This document shows, one piece after another, positions 6,948-48,260 of a stretch of DNA of 64,000 bases. The notes under the pieces are model-generated. The model searched no databases and was not told the DNA's origin. It saw only the letters and a program-made list of their open reading frames with translations. The position numbers and the translations under genes were made by a program. This DNA is from Eledone cirrhosa (Eukaryota). The stretch covers positions 92,504,001 through 92,568,000 of the forward strand of contig OZ024741.1 in NCBI GenBank assembly GCA_964016885.1. Direction: 5' to 3'. Positions within the stretch are counted from its first letter, which is position 1, and each line of letters begins with the position of its first letter.

Positions 6948-8057
6948 ATATACGGATTAACAAATAATAGTTAAATGCAGTCCACTTAGGTGAAGTCCAG
7001 TTATGGTATTCCAGGTAGTGGATGATATTAACGCTTGGCTTGGTTTGACTCAACAAGGCGTTTTCATAGTGATGCTGCGGGTATGCTGTAATTCCTATGG
7101 TGTAAACACTTGGAGTAATAATAAATCAGGAAAGAAGGTTTACATGGTTTGCTATACAAAAAATTTTTAATCACATAGCTTACATTTGTTTCACTGAGCT
7201 GGTATGTCTAGAGATCGCTATCCGCCTAATTTTGCGTCACTCGATCGCCAATACAGAATTATAACCAGTCAGATCTTCGGAGATGCGAGAATGAAGAAAA
7301 TACACAGGCAAGAAAATAAAAGTAAATATGGAGTAGTTATGGCATTCAATTAGAACAATAACAACAACAATTATTACAACAATGCTATCAATAAACTATT
7401 TAAGGAGACCCTGACATTACTTAGGTGGGGGGTATATAATGTATCTAATGTTACGGCGTGAAAACCAGCTGTCATAAGGCAAAAAGTATCGTAGTGTGTA
7501 TCAATTTTAAATTATAAAGATAAGCTAGTTTTTACAGTCTTTCTCTTCATCTTCAACAGTATACATGAGTGGGACCACTGTCAAAGCTCAATAGTTGTAG
7601 AGTTAATACAGAGGTTAACGAATTAATATACGCATATATCTACACGCGCGCACGCACACACACACACACACACACACACACACACACACACACACACACA
7701 CACACACACACACACACACACACACACACACACACACACACACACACACACACACACACACACACACATATATATATAAATATATATACACATATATGTG
7801 TACATAGACACATACATACACATTAATATACACTCGTACAAAAATATACATACATGCAAAGAGAAAAGCGTGCTAATTGTAATATGGCAAAAAGAAGGTA
7901 AAGTAACATTGTAGTAGTGAAATGAGAAAAACTAGGATCTAGGATCAAATGATTGCAGCAGCTGAGAAGGAGTAAGATTGTTGGTAGATGAGGTATTTAC
8001 AGACTATTGTGTGGTATCGACTTGTGAAGGAAATAGTATACTTAATGAATATATATA

Positions 8058-8426
8058 CTGGTGTACATGTGCACTGTCATCTCGGGTAACTCCACTTGGA
8101 ATTACATAGGATCCACAGCGGGTTCTTTTAAGAAAAGATGGTATGTGCACAGGCACTCGATGAAAAACCGAGCTCTTATGGGTTCCACCACCCTCGCCAG
8201 AAAAATATGGGAATTGAAGGACAGCAACGCTAGCTACACTATCAACTGGTCGAAGTTGTCGGCTGCTAAAACCTATAGTACAGGTATGTCCTATTGCGGG
8301 CTGTGTGATCTTGAGCTATTGTATATCCTTAGAAATGTTAAAAGGCTACTTAATAATAAGTTAGAAAGATCTATCTTCTGCAGACATAGAATAGCCACTA
8401 AATTCATAAGATTCAAACCTCCGTGA
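8058..8426 (+). pseudogene. 5'-truncated duplicate of the PLE GIY-YIG endonuclease region
   Basis: Near-identical to 11617-11985 (KDSN versus KNSN). Confidence 0.92.
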
Positions 8427-9599
8427 ATCGAACCAACATAACATAGCTTTAAATTAGGATACCTACTACCCACAAAAACAAAAAAAAAAAAAAAAATATA
8501 TATATATATATATATATTCATTAAGTATACTATTTCCTTCACAAGTCGATACCACACAATAGTCTGTAAATACCTCATCTACCAACAATCTTACTCCTTC
8601 TCAGCTGCTGCAATCATTTGATCCTAGATCCTAGTTTTTCTCATTTCACTACTACAATGTTACTTTACCTTCTTTTTGCCATATTACAATTAGCACGCTT
8701 TTCTCTTTGCATGTATGTATATTTTTGTACGAGTGTATATTAATGTGTATGTATGTGTCTATGTACACATATATGTGTATATATATTTATATTTATATGT
8801 GTGTGTGTGTATGTGTGTGTGTGTGTGTGTGTGTGTGTGTGTGTGTGTGTGTGTGTGTAGATATATGCGTATATTAATTCGTTAACCTCTGTATTAACTC
8901 TACAACTATTGAGCTTTGACAGTGGTCCCACTCATGTATACTGTTGAAGATGAAGAGAAAGACTGTAAAAACTAGCTTATCTTTATAATTTAAAATTGAT
9001 ACACACTACGATACTTTTTGCCTTATGACAGCTGGTTTTCACGCCGTAACATTAGATACATTATATACCCCCCACCTAAGTAATGTCAGGGTCTCCTTAA
9101 ATAGTTTATTGATAGCATTGTTGTAATAATTGTTGTTGTTATTGTTCTAATTGAATGCCATAACTACTCCATATTTTCTTTTATTTTCTTGCCTGTGTAT
9201 TTTCTTCATTCTCGCATGCTCCTAAGATCTGACTGGTTATAATTCTGTATTGGCGATCGAGTGACGCAAAATTAGGCGGATAGCGATCTCTAGACATACC
9301 AGCTCAGTGAAACAAATGTAAGCTATGTGATTAAAAATTTTTTGTATAGCAAACCATGTAAACCTTCTTTCCTGATTTATTATTACTCCAAGTGTTTACA
9401 ACATAGGAATTACAGCATACCCGCAGCATCACTATGAAAACGCCTTGTTGAGTCAAACCAAGCCAAGCGTTAATATCATCCACTACCTGGAATACCATAA
9501 CTGGACTTCACCTAAGTGGACTGCATTTAACTATTATTTGTTAATCCGTATATTTAGCTCCCACCTGGTCGAGCAACACCATTAACGCACGACAACAAC

Positions 9600-45984: not shown

Positions 45985-46548
45985 ATTTCGTTTCCGAATT
46001 TGTTTAGCAAGATTCTTTATCTGAAAACGTGTGTTGAAACCGATATTGTTATGCTTTAGGAGGGTCATGTTGCCAATAAGAAACACACGCACCAGTTGCT
46101 TTCACTCCAATTTATTATAAATTAAAAATAATTTTTTTATAAATTTCCGGTTGGTTGGTTGGTTCCACAACCGGACGGTTGTTCATATATTGTCAAAGTT
46201 CTTTCGTCACACATTCTGTGACCTCATCAGTAACCGGGGATTCTTTTCTTTGTTTTGTGCCTCTCCTTTGTTCTGTCCTACGCCATCTTGTTTTTGTGTG
46301 TGTTGTGTGCTTAGTTTGCGCATGTGTTACATCCGGGTGTCCGTGTGTGTTTTTTGTTTATTTATTTATTTACATGTTACTAGAATGTGTGACGAAAGAA
46401 CTTTGACAATATATGAACAACCGTCCGGTTGTAGAACCAACCAACCGGAAATTTATTAAAAAAAAATTTTTATTTATAATAAATTGGAGTGAAAGCAACT
46501 AATGCGTGTGTTTCTTATTGGCAACATGACCTTCGCAAAGTATAACAA
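45985..46548 (-). mobile_element. Solo pLTR of the fourth PLE family with 5' inversion
   Basis: 46045-46381 matches 27597-27943. 46382-46548 is the reverse complement of ~46045-46218, with the breakpoint inside HHR stem II. Confidence 0.85.
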
Positions 46549-48029
46549 TTTATATATATATATATATATGTGTGTGTGTGTGTGTATATATGGAGGTATA
46601 TATGTGTATATATATGTGTATATATATATATATATATATATATATATATATATATATATATATATATATATATATATACAGGGAGTGTAATGTGAAGTTT
46701 AGGTTCACGTCAGTAGCGAGGTGTACAACAGCAGAGGTTCGACAGTCTTTTGATTCCAGAGTCAAGCCAGATCGCGTTGCACGGACTTAACACAGCAACA
46801 AGGGTGCGACAAAAGGGGTCACCGCGGAATTAGCACAACAGCTGTTCGGCGTACTTGCGCAGGGCGTTCATACTGCGGTGTAGGTGCAACAAAAGGGGTT
46901 TTAGTAGAAGTAGCACAGACGTGAGTTTTACGGTGTCAATAACACGGCAAAGTACACAGGGCCCAGATTTGTGCGTGATGAAAGCACGAATCGTCACCAG
47001 GGCGCCGACAAAAAATTTAAGGTCCTTCTCATTTCCTCAATCCCCCGAAAATGGTCCTGCTTAAAAGTAAGTAAGTGTTGTGTCCTCTGTTAAATAAACC
47101 AAATTCTTAACGAAATATTATACGCTACTTATGATGATTAAGTAGCGTTTATATTGAAAATGAAAATGGCATGTAATGCCCAATGCTAACTCGTAAATTT
47201 CCTAGAAACCATTAATGGAATCTGAAATATTTTTTTGTCCACAGCAATGCGAGGTGTCTAACTAATGTGTGCTGCAAATTTCGAGGAAATCGGCTGGATT
47301 ATCTTTAAGTTACGCATCAAAAAACGCATAAAAATTCCTTTTAAATGCGGTTTTTCGCCAAATGCGGGCTCTAGGGCAGAAAAAAAAATCGAATTTTTTT
47401 TAATTACACTTCAAGTGTAAGTAACGCATGTGTAAAGTTTGAAAAAATTCGGTCGGGTACTTCTCGAGTTTTAGGGATTTACACAGACAGACATCCTCTT
47501 TTTTATATATATATATATTATTATTATTATTATTATATATATGTATATAAATCTGAGCTCTTCGAATATTAAGATTCGGTTGCAATTATGCAAACAGCCT
47601 CTTTAAGCCATGTCAGTAGAATGATCCGTCATTTTTGCTCTTGTGTTGGCATATAAACAGAACGGCAGACACTAATGTTTCTGGGTGATTACTCTTCACC
47701 AATACCGTATACTGCCTCCCTGCCAACTGTCAGAGCTAGTGAAAATATATGGGTTTTTTTCTGGAATATACAATGATTGATCGGCCTGGTTTACATATTA
47801 GCGGACTGGCTGATCAGCTAGATCTGCATATTAGCAGACCCACTGATCAGCCATATTTGCATATCAGCAGATAGGTTAGTTTCATGTATACGAGCGATTA
47901 ATGGCCGATTTTGCCATAGTTAAATAACTAGCAAATAGTTTTATCGCGCGCGCGCTCTCTCTCTCTCTCTCTACACACACACACTCTCACACACACACAC
48001 ACACAAATATATATATATAAATAAATTAG

Positions 48030-48260
48030 ACAATTATCAAAGTTGTGTTCAAATCATTTAATAGATGACAATCGTTTCTTCCAAACTCTCATTTGGAATC
48101 ATCGGAGCATTATCAATGTTTGTACATGTAATTAACCTCCTATTCAACTGAACAATAATATAGATACATATATATTGATGTTGTGAGCAACAGTTTCGTA
48201 TTTACAGGGTGGAATGGATGTGACATATATTTTACGAGAATTGTACACAAATTCAAATTC
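48030..48260 (-). mobile_element. Diverged pLTR remnant homologous to 26530-26740, with CCGAUGA hammerhead motif (48063-48109)
   Basis: UGCU-CCGAUGA-UUCCAAA(UGAGAG)UUUGGAA-GAA-ACGAUUGU-C. Flanks align (AGGAGGT...CATT.ATAA and AATG.TTTGAACA...CTTTGAT). The 3' strand of stem I is decayed. Confidence 0.65.

What the first reader, a model, noticed from the sequence alone, without database searches (positions are those of the whole stretch)
7172..48109. Recurrent U4C hammerhead core (UGCU-CCGANGA) in three diverged PLE pLTRs
Seen: CCGAAGA at 12774 (also 7274-7280 on -) and 26668, and CCGAUGA at 48099-48105, each followed by a valid stem II and GAAAC-N4-GUH. The variable N7 changes while C4 is kept. 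A fourth pLTR has CAGAAGA (17860). Established: U4 is normally near-invariant. Inference: a lineage of PLE ribozymes with a fixed non-canonical core, either attenuated, protein-assisted or repurposed as an RT-binding structure.
Basis: partly seen in the sequence, partly recalled or inferred. Interest (0 to 1): 0.72.

Follow-up and report, generated by a model that had tools for sequence, protein, structure and literature searches.

The report
Penelope hammerhead ribozymes with C4 core
One branch of Penelope-type jumping genes in this animal genome, with roughly ten thousand copies, carries hammerhead self-cutting RNA motifs in which a normally invariant core U is replaced by C or A; this likely weakens cutting without abolishing it.

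Summary
CCGAAGA/CCGAUGA cores sit at 12774(+), 7280(-), 26668(+) and 48105(-). Each has helix I, helix II, GAAAC-N4-GUH and a predicted cut site. All lie 47-64 nt before the 3' end of Penelope-like elements (PLEs).

C at position 4 is the family state, not copy damage:
- It is present in 30 of 33, 40 of 41 and 33 of 37 of the best genomic copies.
- Genome-wide, TGCTCCGANGA-N10-30-GAAACNNNNGT occurs 9,689 times (control 1). The U4 form occurs 522 times and the G5A form 253 times.

Further families (F, D, J) carry C4 or A4. A U4 family in the same genome (G) shows U in 100 of 100 listed copies. On a protein tree, the non-U4 families A, B, C, D and F form one branch (SH-aLRT 98), apart from the U4-bearing PLEs. 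Among 77 related metagenomic PLE loci, 39 of 41 hammerheads have U4.

Every other catalytic nucleotide is kept while the helices differ, so the motif looks selected. Cleavage is untested and no RNA data were available. Best reading: a weak, dimer-forming, probably protein-assisted ribozyme.

This is a new variant of a known kind. The scan had noted another C4-type core (CCGTTGA) elsewhere in this genome.

The parts
12762..12885 (+). Family A hammerhead motif in the 3' pLTR. Helix I is UGCU/AGCU, the core is CCGAAGA at 12774-12780, stem II is interrupted with an insert of about 70 nt, GAAAC-AAAU-GUA follows, and the predicted cut is after 12873.
7172..7292 (-). Inverted copy of the family A hammerhead. 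The core is CCGAAGA at 7280-7274 and the predicted cut is after 7181. One base of helix I is deleted (CAU-CU).
9209..9332 (+). Family A hammerhead copy in the 5' pLTR. Its core is mutated to CCUAAGA (G5 to U), starting at 9221.
8058..12937 (+). Family A Penelope-like element. The pLTR repeats 8058-9383 and 11617-12937 are 97.8% identical. [quoted passage not shown] The element ends in (TA)n.
6948..8057 (-). Inverted 5'-truncated partner copy of family A.
26650..26726 (+). Family B hammerhead motif. The distal helix I is CAUUA/UAAUG and the proximal helix I is UGCU/AGCA. The core is CCGAAGA at 26668-26674, helix II is UCCAAAC/GUUUGGA with a CUCG loop, and GAAAC-AGCU-GUA follows (ACAGCUGU is self-complementary). 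The predicted cut is after 26706.
23643..26941 (+). Family B Penelope-like element, 5'-truncated. The ORF remnant 23643-25205 holds the RT thumb and GIY-YIG. The short-form 3' end is at 26753 and the long form ends at 26941.
48047..48123 (-). Family C hammerhead motif. The core is CCGAUGA at 48105-48099, helix II is UUCCAAA/UUUGGAA, and GAAAC-GAUU-GUC follows. The predicted cut is after 48067 and the element ends near 48007 in (TA)n/(TG)n.
17836..17915 (+). Family D hammerhead-like motif with A4. The core is CAGAAGA at 17860, followed by U-CCC-GUUAA-GGG-U and GAAA. A possible 4-bp helix III (AGCA/UGCU) has a 9-nt loop. This is less certain than A-C.
15273..18097 (.). Family D PLE remnant. The EN-domain ORF lies at 16389-16943(+), the 3' region at 16981-18097(+), and its inverted partner at 15273-16391, with a mirror CAGAAGA core at 15516(-).

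Best explanation
These are hammerhead-ribozyme motifs of Penelope-like retrotransposons whose core has C (in sister families A) instead of U at position 4 as the inherited, family-wide state. They likely still act as weak, dimer-forming and probably protein-assisted self-cleaving RNAs in the element's transcript.

Shown:
- The motif, its place 47-64 nt before the 3' end of the unit, its copy numbers, and C4 as the majority state.
- The branch of PLE proteins that carries non-U4 cores.
- Conservation of all other catalytic nucleotides while the helices differ.

Inferred:
- The RNA still cuts.
- C4 can hold the U-turn, possibly as protonated C.
- Cutting serves to process tandem or read-through PLE transcripts.
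- Loss of U4 is tolerated because the PLE hammerhead is slow and helper-dependent anyway.
For: 1. It is a PLE hammerhead.
- All core positions except 4 are canonical in families A, B, C and F (C3, G5, A6, G8, A9, G12-A14, A15.1-U16.1).
- Position 17 is A in 56, C in 55, U in 1 and G in 0 of 112 copies.
- The B monomer's minimum-energy fold gives helices I and II. Its dimer forms the intermolecular ACAGCUGU helix III, with a ddG of -8.1 kcal/mol.
- 86.6% of cells are paired against 29-50% when partners are slid. Pair 41-52 is A-U in 64 sequences and G-C in 7.
- The host elements have RT plus a C-terminal GIY-YIG-type ORF, pLTRs, inverted truncated partners and (TA)n targets. The nearest Atlas clusters carry HTH_animal, DUF8422, GIY-YIG and RVT_1.

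2. C4 is inherited, not damage.
- The best 40 scored copies of B (of 1,092 candidates) are 98-100% identical.
- Core tallies are 30 of 33 (A), 40 of 41 (B) and 33 of 37 (C).
- Whole-genome counts are 9,689 for C4 (control 1), 522 for U4 and 253 for G5A.
- No variant reaches 5% at 26668-26674 in the contigs of four runs.

3. It is a branch-level trait.
- A versus B proteins are 37.5% identical. D is 35-38% identical to A and B, and F is 41-53% identical to A.
- F shows C in 23, A in 28, U in 3 and G in 2 of 56 copies.
- The nine rows from A, B, C, D and F form one side of a branch with SH-aLRT 98. U4 family G and 30 U4 metagenomic PLEs lie on the other side.
- U4 control family G shows CUGA in 100 of 100 listed copies.
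- In 77 related metagenomic loci, 39 of 41 plus-strand hammerheads have U4.

4. Activity is plausible.
- A U4C viroid hammerhead cuts poorly in vitro yet supports infectivity (PMC3088659, discussion passage).
- A protonated C can replace the U of a U-turn (PMC4105743, abstract and passages).
- An Anolis PLE hammerhead cut only when its protein was added (PMC11167929, passages).
Against: - No cleavage data exist for any of these sequences. No RNA run was listed, so transcript ends could not be mapped.
- In a deep mutational scan of a hammerhead, all single mutants of the CUGA turn had low activity (PMC9901934, passage).
- A4 (families D, F and J) cannot imitate U by protonation.
- All insertions end 47-64 nt beyond the predicted cut site, so the RNAs that were copied had not been cut at their 3' motif.
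- Hammerhead mutants did not affect in vitro insertion of the Anolis PLE (PMC11167929).
- Copies with the inactivating G5A change also occur as an inverted pair and as four tandem units (one search list). This hints that cutting is not needed for spread.
- Stem covariation is modest, because the sequences are closely related and part of the alignment was picked by a pattern that fixes the core.
- Rfam models give no hit. The 10.1-11.1 pair is not G-C in A, B or C.
Confidence: 0.5

Rival explanations
1. The motif no longer cuts. It is kept as a folded RNA element that the element's reverse transcriptase or another factor recognises near the site where reverse transcription starts.
For: - The motif lies 47-64 nt upstream of the unit's 3' end in A, B and C, and about 37 nt upstream in U4 family G.
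- The block downstream of the cut site (AAAUGNUUUGAAC...CUUUGA) is as conserved as the core between B and C.
- Cleavage was dispensable for in vitro insertion of an Anolis PLE (PMC11167929).
- Naiad PLEs thrive without canonical hammerheads (PMC8557442, passages).
- Position-4 changes lower activity (PMC9901934, PMC3088659).
Against: Across families whose helices and loops are wholly different (A, B, F, D), precisely the catalytic nucleotides are kept and position 17 is never G. That pattern is what selection on catalysis predicts. A protein-binding role does not explain the self-complementary loop 3 that allows dimer formation.
Confidence: 0.25
2. C4/A4 is positively selected to slow self-cleavage. 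More transcripts would then keep the 3' tail on which reverse transcription must start.
For: - Every insertion retains the tail beyond the cut site.
- The C4-G5 CpG has persisted in lineages as far apart as 37.5% protein identity, although CpG-to-TpG change would restore U4. CpG observed/expected is 0.75-0.85.
- No large U4 subfamily is visible in the lists.
Against: - U4 family G has the same tail layout and more than 4,000 copies.
- U4 copies are twice as frequent as G5A copies, and three inverted pairs share U4, so U4-bearing sources did transpose.
- CpG depletion is mild.
- Only the first 100 matches of each pattern could be read.
Confidence: 0.15
3. The hammerhead is a passenger or relic with no present role. 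Position 4 drifts because nothing constrains it.
For: - It has been suggested that hammerheads may simply parasitise PLEs (PMC8557442, passage).
- Position 4 takes three states across families.
Against: If the motif were unconstrained, the other eleven core positions and the helices should have drifted too between families that are 35-53% identical in protein. They did not. Within each family, position 4 is uniform.
Confidence: 0.08
4. These are chance look-alikes and not hammerhead-derived at all.
For: Rfam gives no hammerhead hit, even on 111-nt stretches at E up to 10.
Against: - 9,689 genomic matches against 1 for the reversed pattern.
- 4 C4 hits in the window against about 0.3 per shuffle.
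- The motif holds the same place in PLEs as published PLE hammerheads.
- The U4 control in this window also scores only 16.5 bits, so the Rfam miss reflects the minimal helix III.
Confidence: 0.02

Closest known systems
Minimal type-I hammerheads of Penelope-like elements (Cervera & de la Pena 2014, PMC4209133; Lunse, Weinberg & Breaker 2017, not held here)
   Same: - Located in pLTRs.
- Long helix II and short helix I.
- Helix III of 1-2 bp with a self-complementary loop that allows dimers.
- High copy numbers, and inverted pairs of motifs.
   Different: - Position 4 is C or A as the family state.
- 10.1-11.1 is A/G, U-A or U/U instead of the reported G-C.
- The 2014 searches fixed the catalytic boxes, so such cores could not be found. 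In the passages I saw of its supplementary alignment of 56 representative hammerheads, every core read CUGANGA or UUGANAA.
- I could not read the 2017 paper, which may bear on novelty.
U4C variant of a viroid hammerhead (Ambros & Flores 1998, known to me only through PMC3088659)
   Same: The same substitution occurs in a natural hammerhead. It is reported to lower activity in vitro yet to remain sufficient in vivo.
   Different: That case is a sequence variant of one viroid. Here C4 is the inherited state of whole retrotransposon families with about 10,000 DNA copies, next to A4 sister families.
U3-A8 covariant cores in Cercyon PLEs and bacterial or phage hammerheads (PMC4209133; PMC3088659 section 8)
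   Same: This is a natural, family-wide departure from the core consensus in PLE hammerheads.
   Different: U3-A8 is a compensated base-pair swap. C4/A4 is an uncompensated change of the U-turn nucleotide, and I found no partner position that co-varies with it.
Poseidon PAc hammerhead of Anolis (PMC11167929)
   Same: It is a PLE hammerhead that needs the element's protein to cut and is dispensable for in vitro insertion. This gives a frame in which a weakened core can persist.
   Different: The PAc motif overlaps the ORF start, and the passages I read describe no departure from the canonical core. Here the motif lies near the 3' end of the unit and lacks U4.
C-for-U replacement in U-turns (neomycin riboswitch; PMC4105743, and PMC6061696 from its listing only)
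   Same: It offers a structural route by which C4 could keep the turn, through protonation at N3.
   Different: It is a different RNA, was not shown for hammerheads, and does not cover A4.

Membership tests
Hammerhead ribozyme (type I) | Core strand C3-U4-G5-A6-N7-G8-A9 | tested here: not met
   Six of the seven positions are met. Position 4 is C in A, B and C, and A in D. The motif is therefore a core variant, not a consensus member.
Hammerhead ribozyme (type I) | G12-A13-A14, the A15.1-U16.1 pair, and H (not G) at position 17 | tested here: met
   GAAAC-N4-GU followed by A, C or U. Position 17 is A in 56, C in 55, U in 1 and G in 0 of 112 copies.
Hammerhead ribozyme (type I) | Three helices around the core, with helix I open-ended | tested here: met
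   The minimum-energy fold of B gives helices I and II. Helix III forms between two copies. 86.6% of cells are paired against 29-50% when partners are slid, and one pair shows an A-U to G-C change in 7 sequences.
Hammerhead ribozyme (type I) | Score at or above the Rfam gathering threshold | tested here: not met
   No hammerhead hit in the whole window or on 111-nt stretches. A U4 control motif in the window also reaches only 16.5 bits against a threshold of 52.
Hammerhead ribozyme (type I) | Site-specific self-cleavage giving 5'-OH and 2',3'-cyclic phosphate ends | not testable with these tools
   No RNA run was listed, and only contigs could be laid.
PLE minimal hammerhead (Cervera & de la Pena 2014) | Location in the pLTR of a Penelope-like element | tested here: met
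   Family A has motifs in both pLTRs at 9221 and 12774. In B, C, D and F the motif lies downstream of the EN-domain ORF or upstream of the ORF.
PLE minimal hammerhead (Cervera & de la Pena 2014) | [quoted passage not shown] | tested here: inconclusive
   B has A...G flanking a 7-bp stem, C has U-A, and A has U/U. Only family F has G-C.
PLE minimal hammerhead (Cervera & de la Pena 2014) | Self-complementary 15.2-loop 3-16.2 segment that allows dimers | tested here: met
   B has ACAGCUGU, which is fully self-complementary. C has ACGAUUGU and many copies have ACAAUUGU or ACAGUUGU, which pair with at most two G-U pairs. Family A's ACAAAUGU leaves two central mismatches.
Penelope-like element, C-terminal EN+ type | A single ORF with RT followed by a GIY-YIG endonuclease | tested here: inconclusive
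   - Pfam gives no hit for A and only a weak GIY-YIG hit for B (E 0.46).
- By eye, the ORFs show YRDD, a Cys-rich linker and a Y-x-G-S-T ... R ... H block.
- The nearest Atlas clusters (scores 0.94-0.98) carry HTH_animal, DUF8422, GIY-YIG and RVT_1.
- 55 homologues at 29-43% identity carry PF26215 or PF28514, and one carries PF00078.
Penelope-like element, C-terminal EN+ type | Partial tandem (pLTR) layout, an inverted 5'-truncated partner, 5' truncation, and a microsatellite target | tested here: met
   The layout matches the description in PMC8557442 (passages).

The most novel reading that the evidence does not exclude
A whole, still-active branch of Penelope-like elements has given up the U-turn uridine of the hammerhead core. 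It holds C or A there under selection, against the easy CpG-to-TpG route back to U. That would mean either that in vivo PLE hammerheads work by a protein-assisted, dimeric mechanism in which position 4 no longer matters, or that self-cleavage has been deliberately throttled so the transcript keeps the 3' tail needed to prime reverse transcription.
Probability: 0.3. Interest if true: 0.65.

Novelty: new variant of a known kind. Interest (0 to 1): 0.5.

Why it matters
U4 is treated as part of the invariant hammerhead core, and search descriptors fix it. Elements like these are therefore invisible to the usual screens: Rfam and the published PLE descriptor both miss them.

Here, about 12,000 genomic motifs in one animal carry C4, against about 16,000 with U4. 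The trait follows a branch of the PLE protein tree.

This provides a natural experiment on how much of the core a retrotransposon hammerhead really needs. It bears directly on the open question of what PLE hammerheads do, because cleavage is weak in vitro, protein-assisted in one case, and dispensable for in vitro insertion.

It also yields matched natural C4, A4 and U4 sequences for kinetic work. Finally, it suggests that counts of hammerheads in animal genomes are underestimates.

Tried and rejected
- **Rfam.** There was no hammerhead hit at gathering threshold or at E up to 10 on the whole window, nor on 111-nt stretches around B and C. The U4 control reached only 16.5 bits, so Rfam is uninformative for these minimal forms.
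- **The repeat finder** on the whole window was swamped by microsatellites. I replaced it with a self-BLAST.
- **Expression.** No RNA holder was listed. The four runs laid were contigs and cannot show ends, so transcript ends remain unmapped.
- **Protein identification.** Pfam at E up to 10 and PDB sequences gave nothing useful for the PLE ORFs.
- **More U4 PLE families.** Twenty stretches fetched around other U4 motifs held no PLE ORF within 3 kb. One abundant motif (family H) is a monomeric type-I hammerhead of a non-coding repeat.
- **Literature.**
  - Lunse et al. 2017 (PMC5785218) and Ambros & Flores 1998 (PMC147498) are not held.
  - A search for 'hammerhead' with U4C found only PMC3088659.
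  - A search for 'hammerhead' with CCGANGA-type strings found nothing relevant.
  - The 2026 retrozyme preprint does not discuss core variants.
- **Alternative register.** I considered reading the second C as C3, with U4 deleted, and rejected it. Helix I then loses the U2.1-A1.1 pair next to the core.
- **RNA editing.** I considered C-to-U editing as a switch but did not pursue it. There are no RNA data, and A4 families cannot be rescued that way.
- **Earlier notes of this scan.** Searches by words and by sequence returned nothing for this motif.
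Full report
**Setting.** The window is G000:C2:92504001-92568000 of a 3.0-Gb animal genome. It is AT-rich (GC 0.35, CpG observed/expected 0.85) and packed with retroelements.

**The observation.**
- CCGANGA occurs 18 times in the window against 9.8 expected.
- I wrote a descriptor asking for C-N-GA-N-GA, a stem II of at least 4 bp, GAAA, a 15.2-16.2 pair and U-H. It returns exactly these four C4 sites plus nine U4 sites.
- Controls gave 0 hits in the reversed sequence, 1 in the complement, and 27 in 20 shuffles, six of them C4.
- Predicted cut sites are after 12873, 26706, 48067(-) and 7181(-).
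- CAGAAGA at 17860 is real and has a mirror copy at 15516(-).

**The host elements.** A self-comparison of the window shows three PLE remnants.
- *Family A.* The 1.3-kb direct repeats 8058-9383 and 11617-12937 (97.8% identical) flank a 677-aa ORF at 9952-11985. An inverted truncated partner lies at 6948-8057.
- *Family B.* This 5'-truncated element at 23643-26941 has 3' ends that recur in other genomic copies at 26941, or at 26753 in inverted partners.
- *Family D.* An inverted-repeat structure at 15273-18097 surrounds an EN-domain ORF at 16389-16943.
- The ORFs show a YRDD reverse-transcriptase motif, a Cys-rich linker and a GIY-YIG-like block.
- Pfam does not recognise them: no hit for A, and GIY-YIG at E 0.46 for B.
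- The nearest protein-atlas clusters (scores 0.94-0.98) carry HTH_animal, DUF8422, GIY-YIG and RVT_1.
- 55 database homologues at 29-43% identity carry PF26215 or PF28514, and one carries PF00078.
- Together with the pLTR layout, the inverted partners, 5' truncation and ends in (TA)n, this is the layout described for endonuclease-bearing Penelope-like elements (PMC8557442, passages).
- A and B proteins are 37.5% identical over 472 aa. C is 65-73% identical to B, and D is 35-38% identical to both. The three C4 sites therefore stand for two deep lineages, with C a relative of B.

- Own-genome searches with 201-nt stretches returned 1,092 (B), 1,476 (A), 2,205 (C) and 488 (D) candidates. Forty of each were scored.
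- B's best copies are 98-100% identical, so the family is young.
- In those loci the core reads CCGAAGA in 30 of 33 covered A copies and in 40 of 41 B copies. It reads CCGAUGA in 33 of 37 C copies.
- The exceptions include 2 CUGAUGA, 2 CCUAAGA, and one CCAA form in each of B and C.
- The third A copy in the window, at 9221, has G5 mutated.

Whole-genome pattern counts:

| Pattern | Matches | Control (reversed pattern) |
|---|---|---|
| TGCTCCGANGA-N10-30-GAAACNNNNGT (C4) | 9,689 | 1 |
| Same with CTGA (U4) | 522 | 1 |
| Same with CCAA (G5A) | 253 | 0 |
| CTGANGA..., no TGCT prefix (U4) | 16,438 | 1,385 |
| CCGANGA..., no TGCT prefix (C4) | 12,018 | 664 |
| CAGANGA..., no TGCT prefix (A4) | 2,360 | 1,152 |

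- The listed U4 and G5A copies carry the same stem-II signatures as the C4 subfamilies. They look like CpG decay products.
- However, three inverted pairs share U4 (one search list). That suggests a few U4-bearing sources did transpose.
- Contigs of four public runs laid on B show no variant of 5% or more at 26668-26674. The commonest difference is 26702 C>U in loop 3, which keeps the loop able to pair with itself through G-U.

**Is it a hammerhead fold?**
- I aligned 74 distinct B/C-lineage segments. They comprise all pattern matches in 60 loci plus 40 stretches that I picked for diversity from the lists. The core columns are fixed by the pattern used to collect them.
- 86.6% of cells are paired against 29-50% when partners are slid. 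One helix-II pair is A-U in 64 sequences and G-C in 7, and a distal helix-I pair shows four pair types. Overall covariation is modest: 7 of 500 shuffles reach the score.
- Helix I has a proximal part (UGCU/AGCA), an internal loop and a distal part (CAUU/AAUG).
- ViennaRNA folds the B monomer into helices I and II. It folds two copies into a dimer joined by the self-complementary ACAGCUGU, with a ddG of -8.1 kcal/mol. A U4 control from the window behaves the same way.
- Position 17 is never G in 112 copies.
- Rfam does not report these motifs. It also gives a canonical U4 motif of this window only 16.5 bits, so the miss is due to the minimal helix III.

**How wide is the trait?**
- Family F (AUAUCUGCCU-C[C/A]GA[C/U]GA-GCCCC..GGGC-GAAAC-A[C/U]GU-GUA) has 56 matches with position 4 left free: C 23, A 28, U 3, G 2. 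It sits beside PLE ORFs that are 41-53% identical to A.
- Family D's majority is CAGAAGA. It can be folded with a 4-bp helix III and, in copies reading GCUUAAAC, a GUUU/AAAC helix I. I rate it less certain.
- A further family, J, is mostly A4 with some C4.
- In contrast, U4 family G (CGAG-CUGARGA-UCCGCUAAGGU-GAAAC-AAUU-GUU) has 4,243 matches with position 4 left free. All 100 listed read CUGA. Its ORF is 25-38% identical to A, B and D.
- In 77 metagenomic loci encoding relatives of A (30-41% identity), the free-position descriptor finds 41 plus-strand motifs in 35 loci. Of these, 39 have U4, one has C4 (L280) and one is a doubtful U3-A8-type hit. The control gave 1 hit.
- Some of the U4 relatives share the 3' flank GCAAAUAAAUG with the B/C lineage. 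This suggests that U4 was ancestral.

**Protein tree.** The tree covers the thumb and EN region (43 rows, 223 columns, quick IQ-TREE).
- Rows: 9 own non-U4 rows, 3 rows of G, and 31 of the 34 typed metagenomic loci. Three loci were dropped because their best HSP was under 200 aa.
- All nine rows of A, B, C, D and F fall on one side of a branch with SH-aLRT 98. Every U4-bearing PLE, plus L280, falls on the other side.
- Caveats: the root is at the midpoint, A and D have long branches, F and D rows are short, and all members of the branch come from one genome.

**What is known.**
- PLE hammerheads are minimal type-I motifs thought to act as dimers, with low activity in vitro. The searches that defined them fixed the catalytic boxes, and the authors note this bias (PMC4209133, parts 1-2 of the text).
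- In the passages I saw of that paper's supplementary alignment of 56 representatives, the cores read CUGANGA or UUGANAA.
- Natural core variants have been catalogued. A U4C viroid variant lowers activity in vitro yet permits infectivity, and U10.1-U11.1 mismatches occur (PMC3088659, section 8 and discussion passage).
- In a pairwise mutational scan, all single mutants of the CUGA turn had low activity (PMC9901934, passage).
- A protonated C can replace the U of a U-turn in a riboswitch (PMC4105743).
- An Anolis PLE hammerhead cut only with its protein present and was not needed for in vitro insertion (PMC11167929, passages).
- I found no description of C4 or A4 as a family state in PLE hammerheads. 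However, I could not read Lunse et al. 2017.

**Reading.**
- Shown: a branch of PLEs in this genome inherits hammerhead motifs with C or A at position 4. Every other catalytic nucleotide is conserved across families whose helices have been completely replaced.
- Inferred: the motif is still under selection. It most likely remains a slow, dimer-forming, helper-dependent ribozyme (confidence 0.5).
- The main rival is a non-cutting structural role near the reverse-transcription start (0.25).
- All insertions extend 47-64 nt past the cut site, so the copied RNAs were uncut at their 3' motif. This fits a tolerated or even favoured weakening, but U4 family G has the same layout.
- Cleavage itself is untested.

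**Verdict.**
The lineage exists, but its position 4 is non-U rather than fixed C, and function remains open.
- This is a new variant of a known kind, of moderate interest.

Noticed in passing
window 828-1771: Three tandem units of about 310 bp each carry a canonical U4 type-I hammerhead (cores at 985, 1295 and 1603; GUAGUC-CUGAAGA-U-UUCU-AACA-AGAA-U-GAAAC-GC-GUA|GAUUAC). The layout resembles the non-LTR retrozymes of animals. Rfam HH9 scores only 16.5 bits.
   Followed up: partly
window 12928-15454: Direct and inverted repeats of about 500 bp, directly after family A's 3' end, carry U4 hammerheads at 13205(-), 13699(-) and 15080(+) (ACGGUG-CUGAUGA-U-AGCU-AACA-AGCU-U-GAAAC-UA-GUA|CAUCGU).
   Followed up: no
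window 27730-27802(-) and 46180-46250(-): A further repeat family (27592-27944 and 46043-46381, 89% identical) has a U4 minimal hammerhead of the published PLE type: CUGAWGA-G-GUCACA-GAAUG-UGUGAC-GAAAG-AA-CUU.
   Followed up: no
own genome, loci L121-L150: Family F hammerheads have a canonical G10.1-C11.1 pair but A or C at position 4, in two subfamilies (A4 with loop AUGU, C4 with loop ACGU). They lie next to PLE ORFs 41-53% identical to family A.
   Followed up: partly
own genome, lists: Family J, C[A/C]GACGA-GGUAUCACUAUC-GAAAC-CAAG-GU, is mostly A4 with some C4 copies. Its host element is unknown.
   Followed up: no
own genome, one search list (C2:343587189-343597197): Four tandem units 3.3 kb apart all carry the G5A (CCAA) core, and one inverted pair shares it. 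Either these are tandem duplications, or elements with a catalytically dead core still multiplied.
   Followed up: no
L280:2284-2330: A single metagenomic PLE relative has a C4 hammerhead upstream of its ORF (GGGCGA-CCGAAGA-A-GGCC-UUACU-GGCC-GAAAC-GCAU-GUA|UCGCCC). It sits among 39 U4 relatives.
   Followed up: no
window 28558-40281(-): Three related non-LTR (LINE-type) copies have endonuclease/exonuclease/phosphatase, RVT_1 and zf-RVT domains. 29157-30955 matches 38222-39989 at 95.6%, and 29370-31557 matches 33415-35610 at 84.5%.
   Followed up: no
window 45080-45396(-): A long, near-perfect hairpin of about 317 nt matches the Rfam MIR2646 model at 137.9 bits, below its threshold of 245. It is probably an inverted-repeat element rather than that microRNA.
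   Followed up: no
window 106-844, 49291-49459, 54513-54931: Three large palindromes are self-complementary at 84-94%. The last also gives weak two-strand hits to MIR8742.
   Followed up: no
window 1700-6560: Several kilobases of degenerate microsatellite with a period of about 8-12 nt produce long spurious ORFs on both strands and dominate repeat finders.
   Followed up: no
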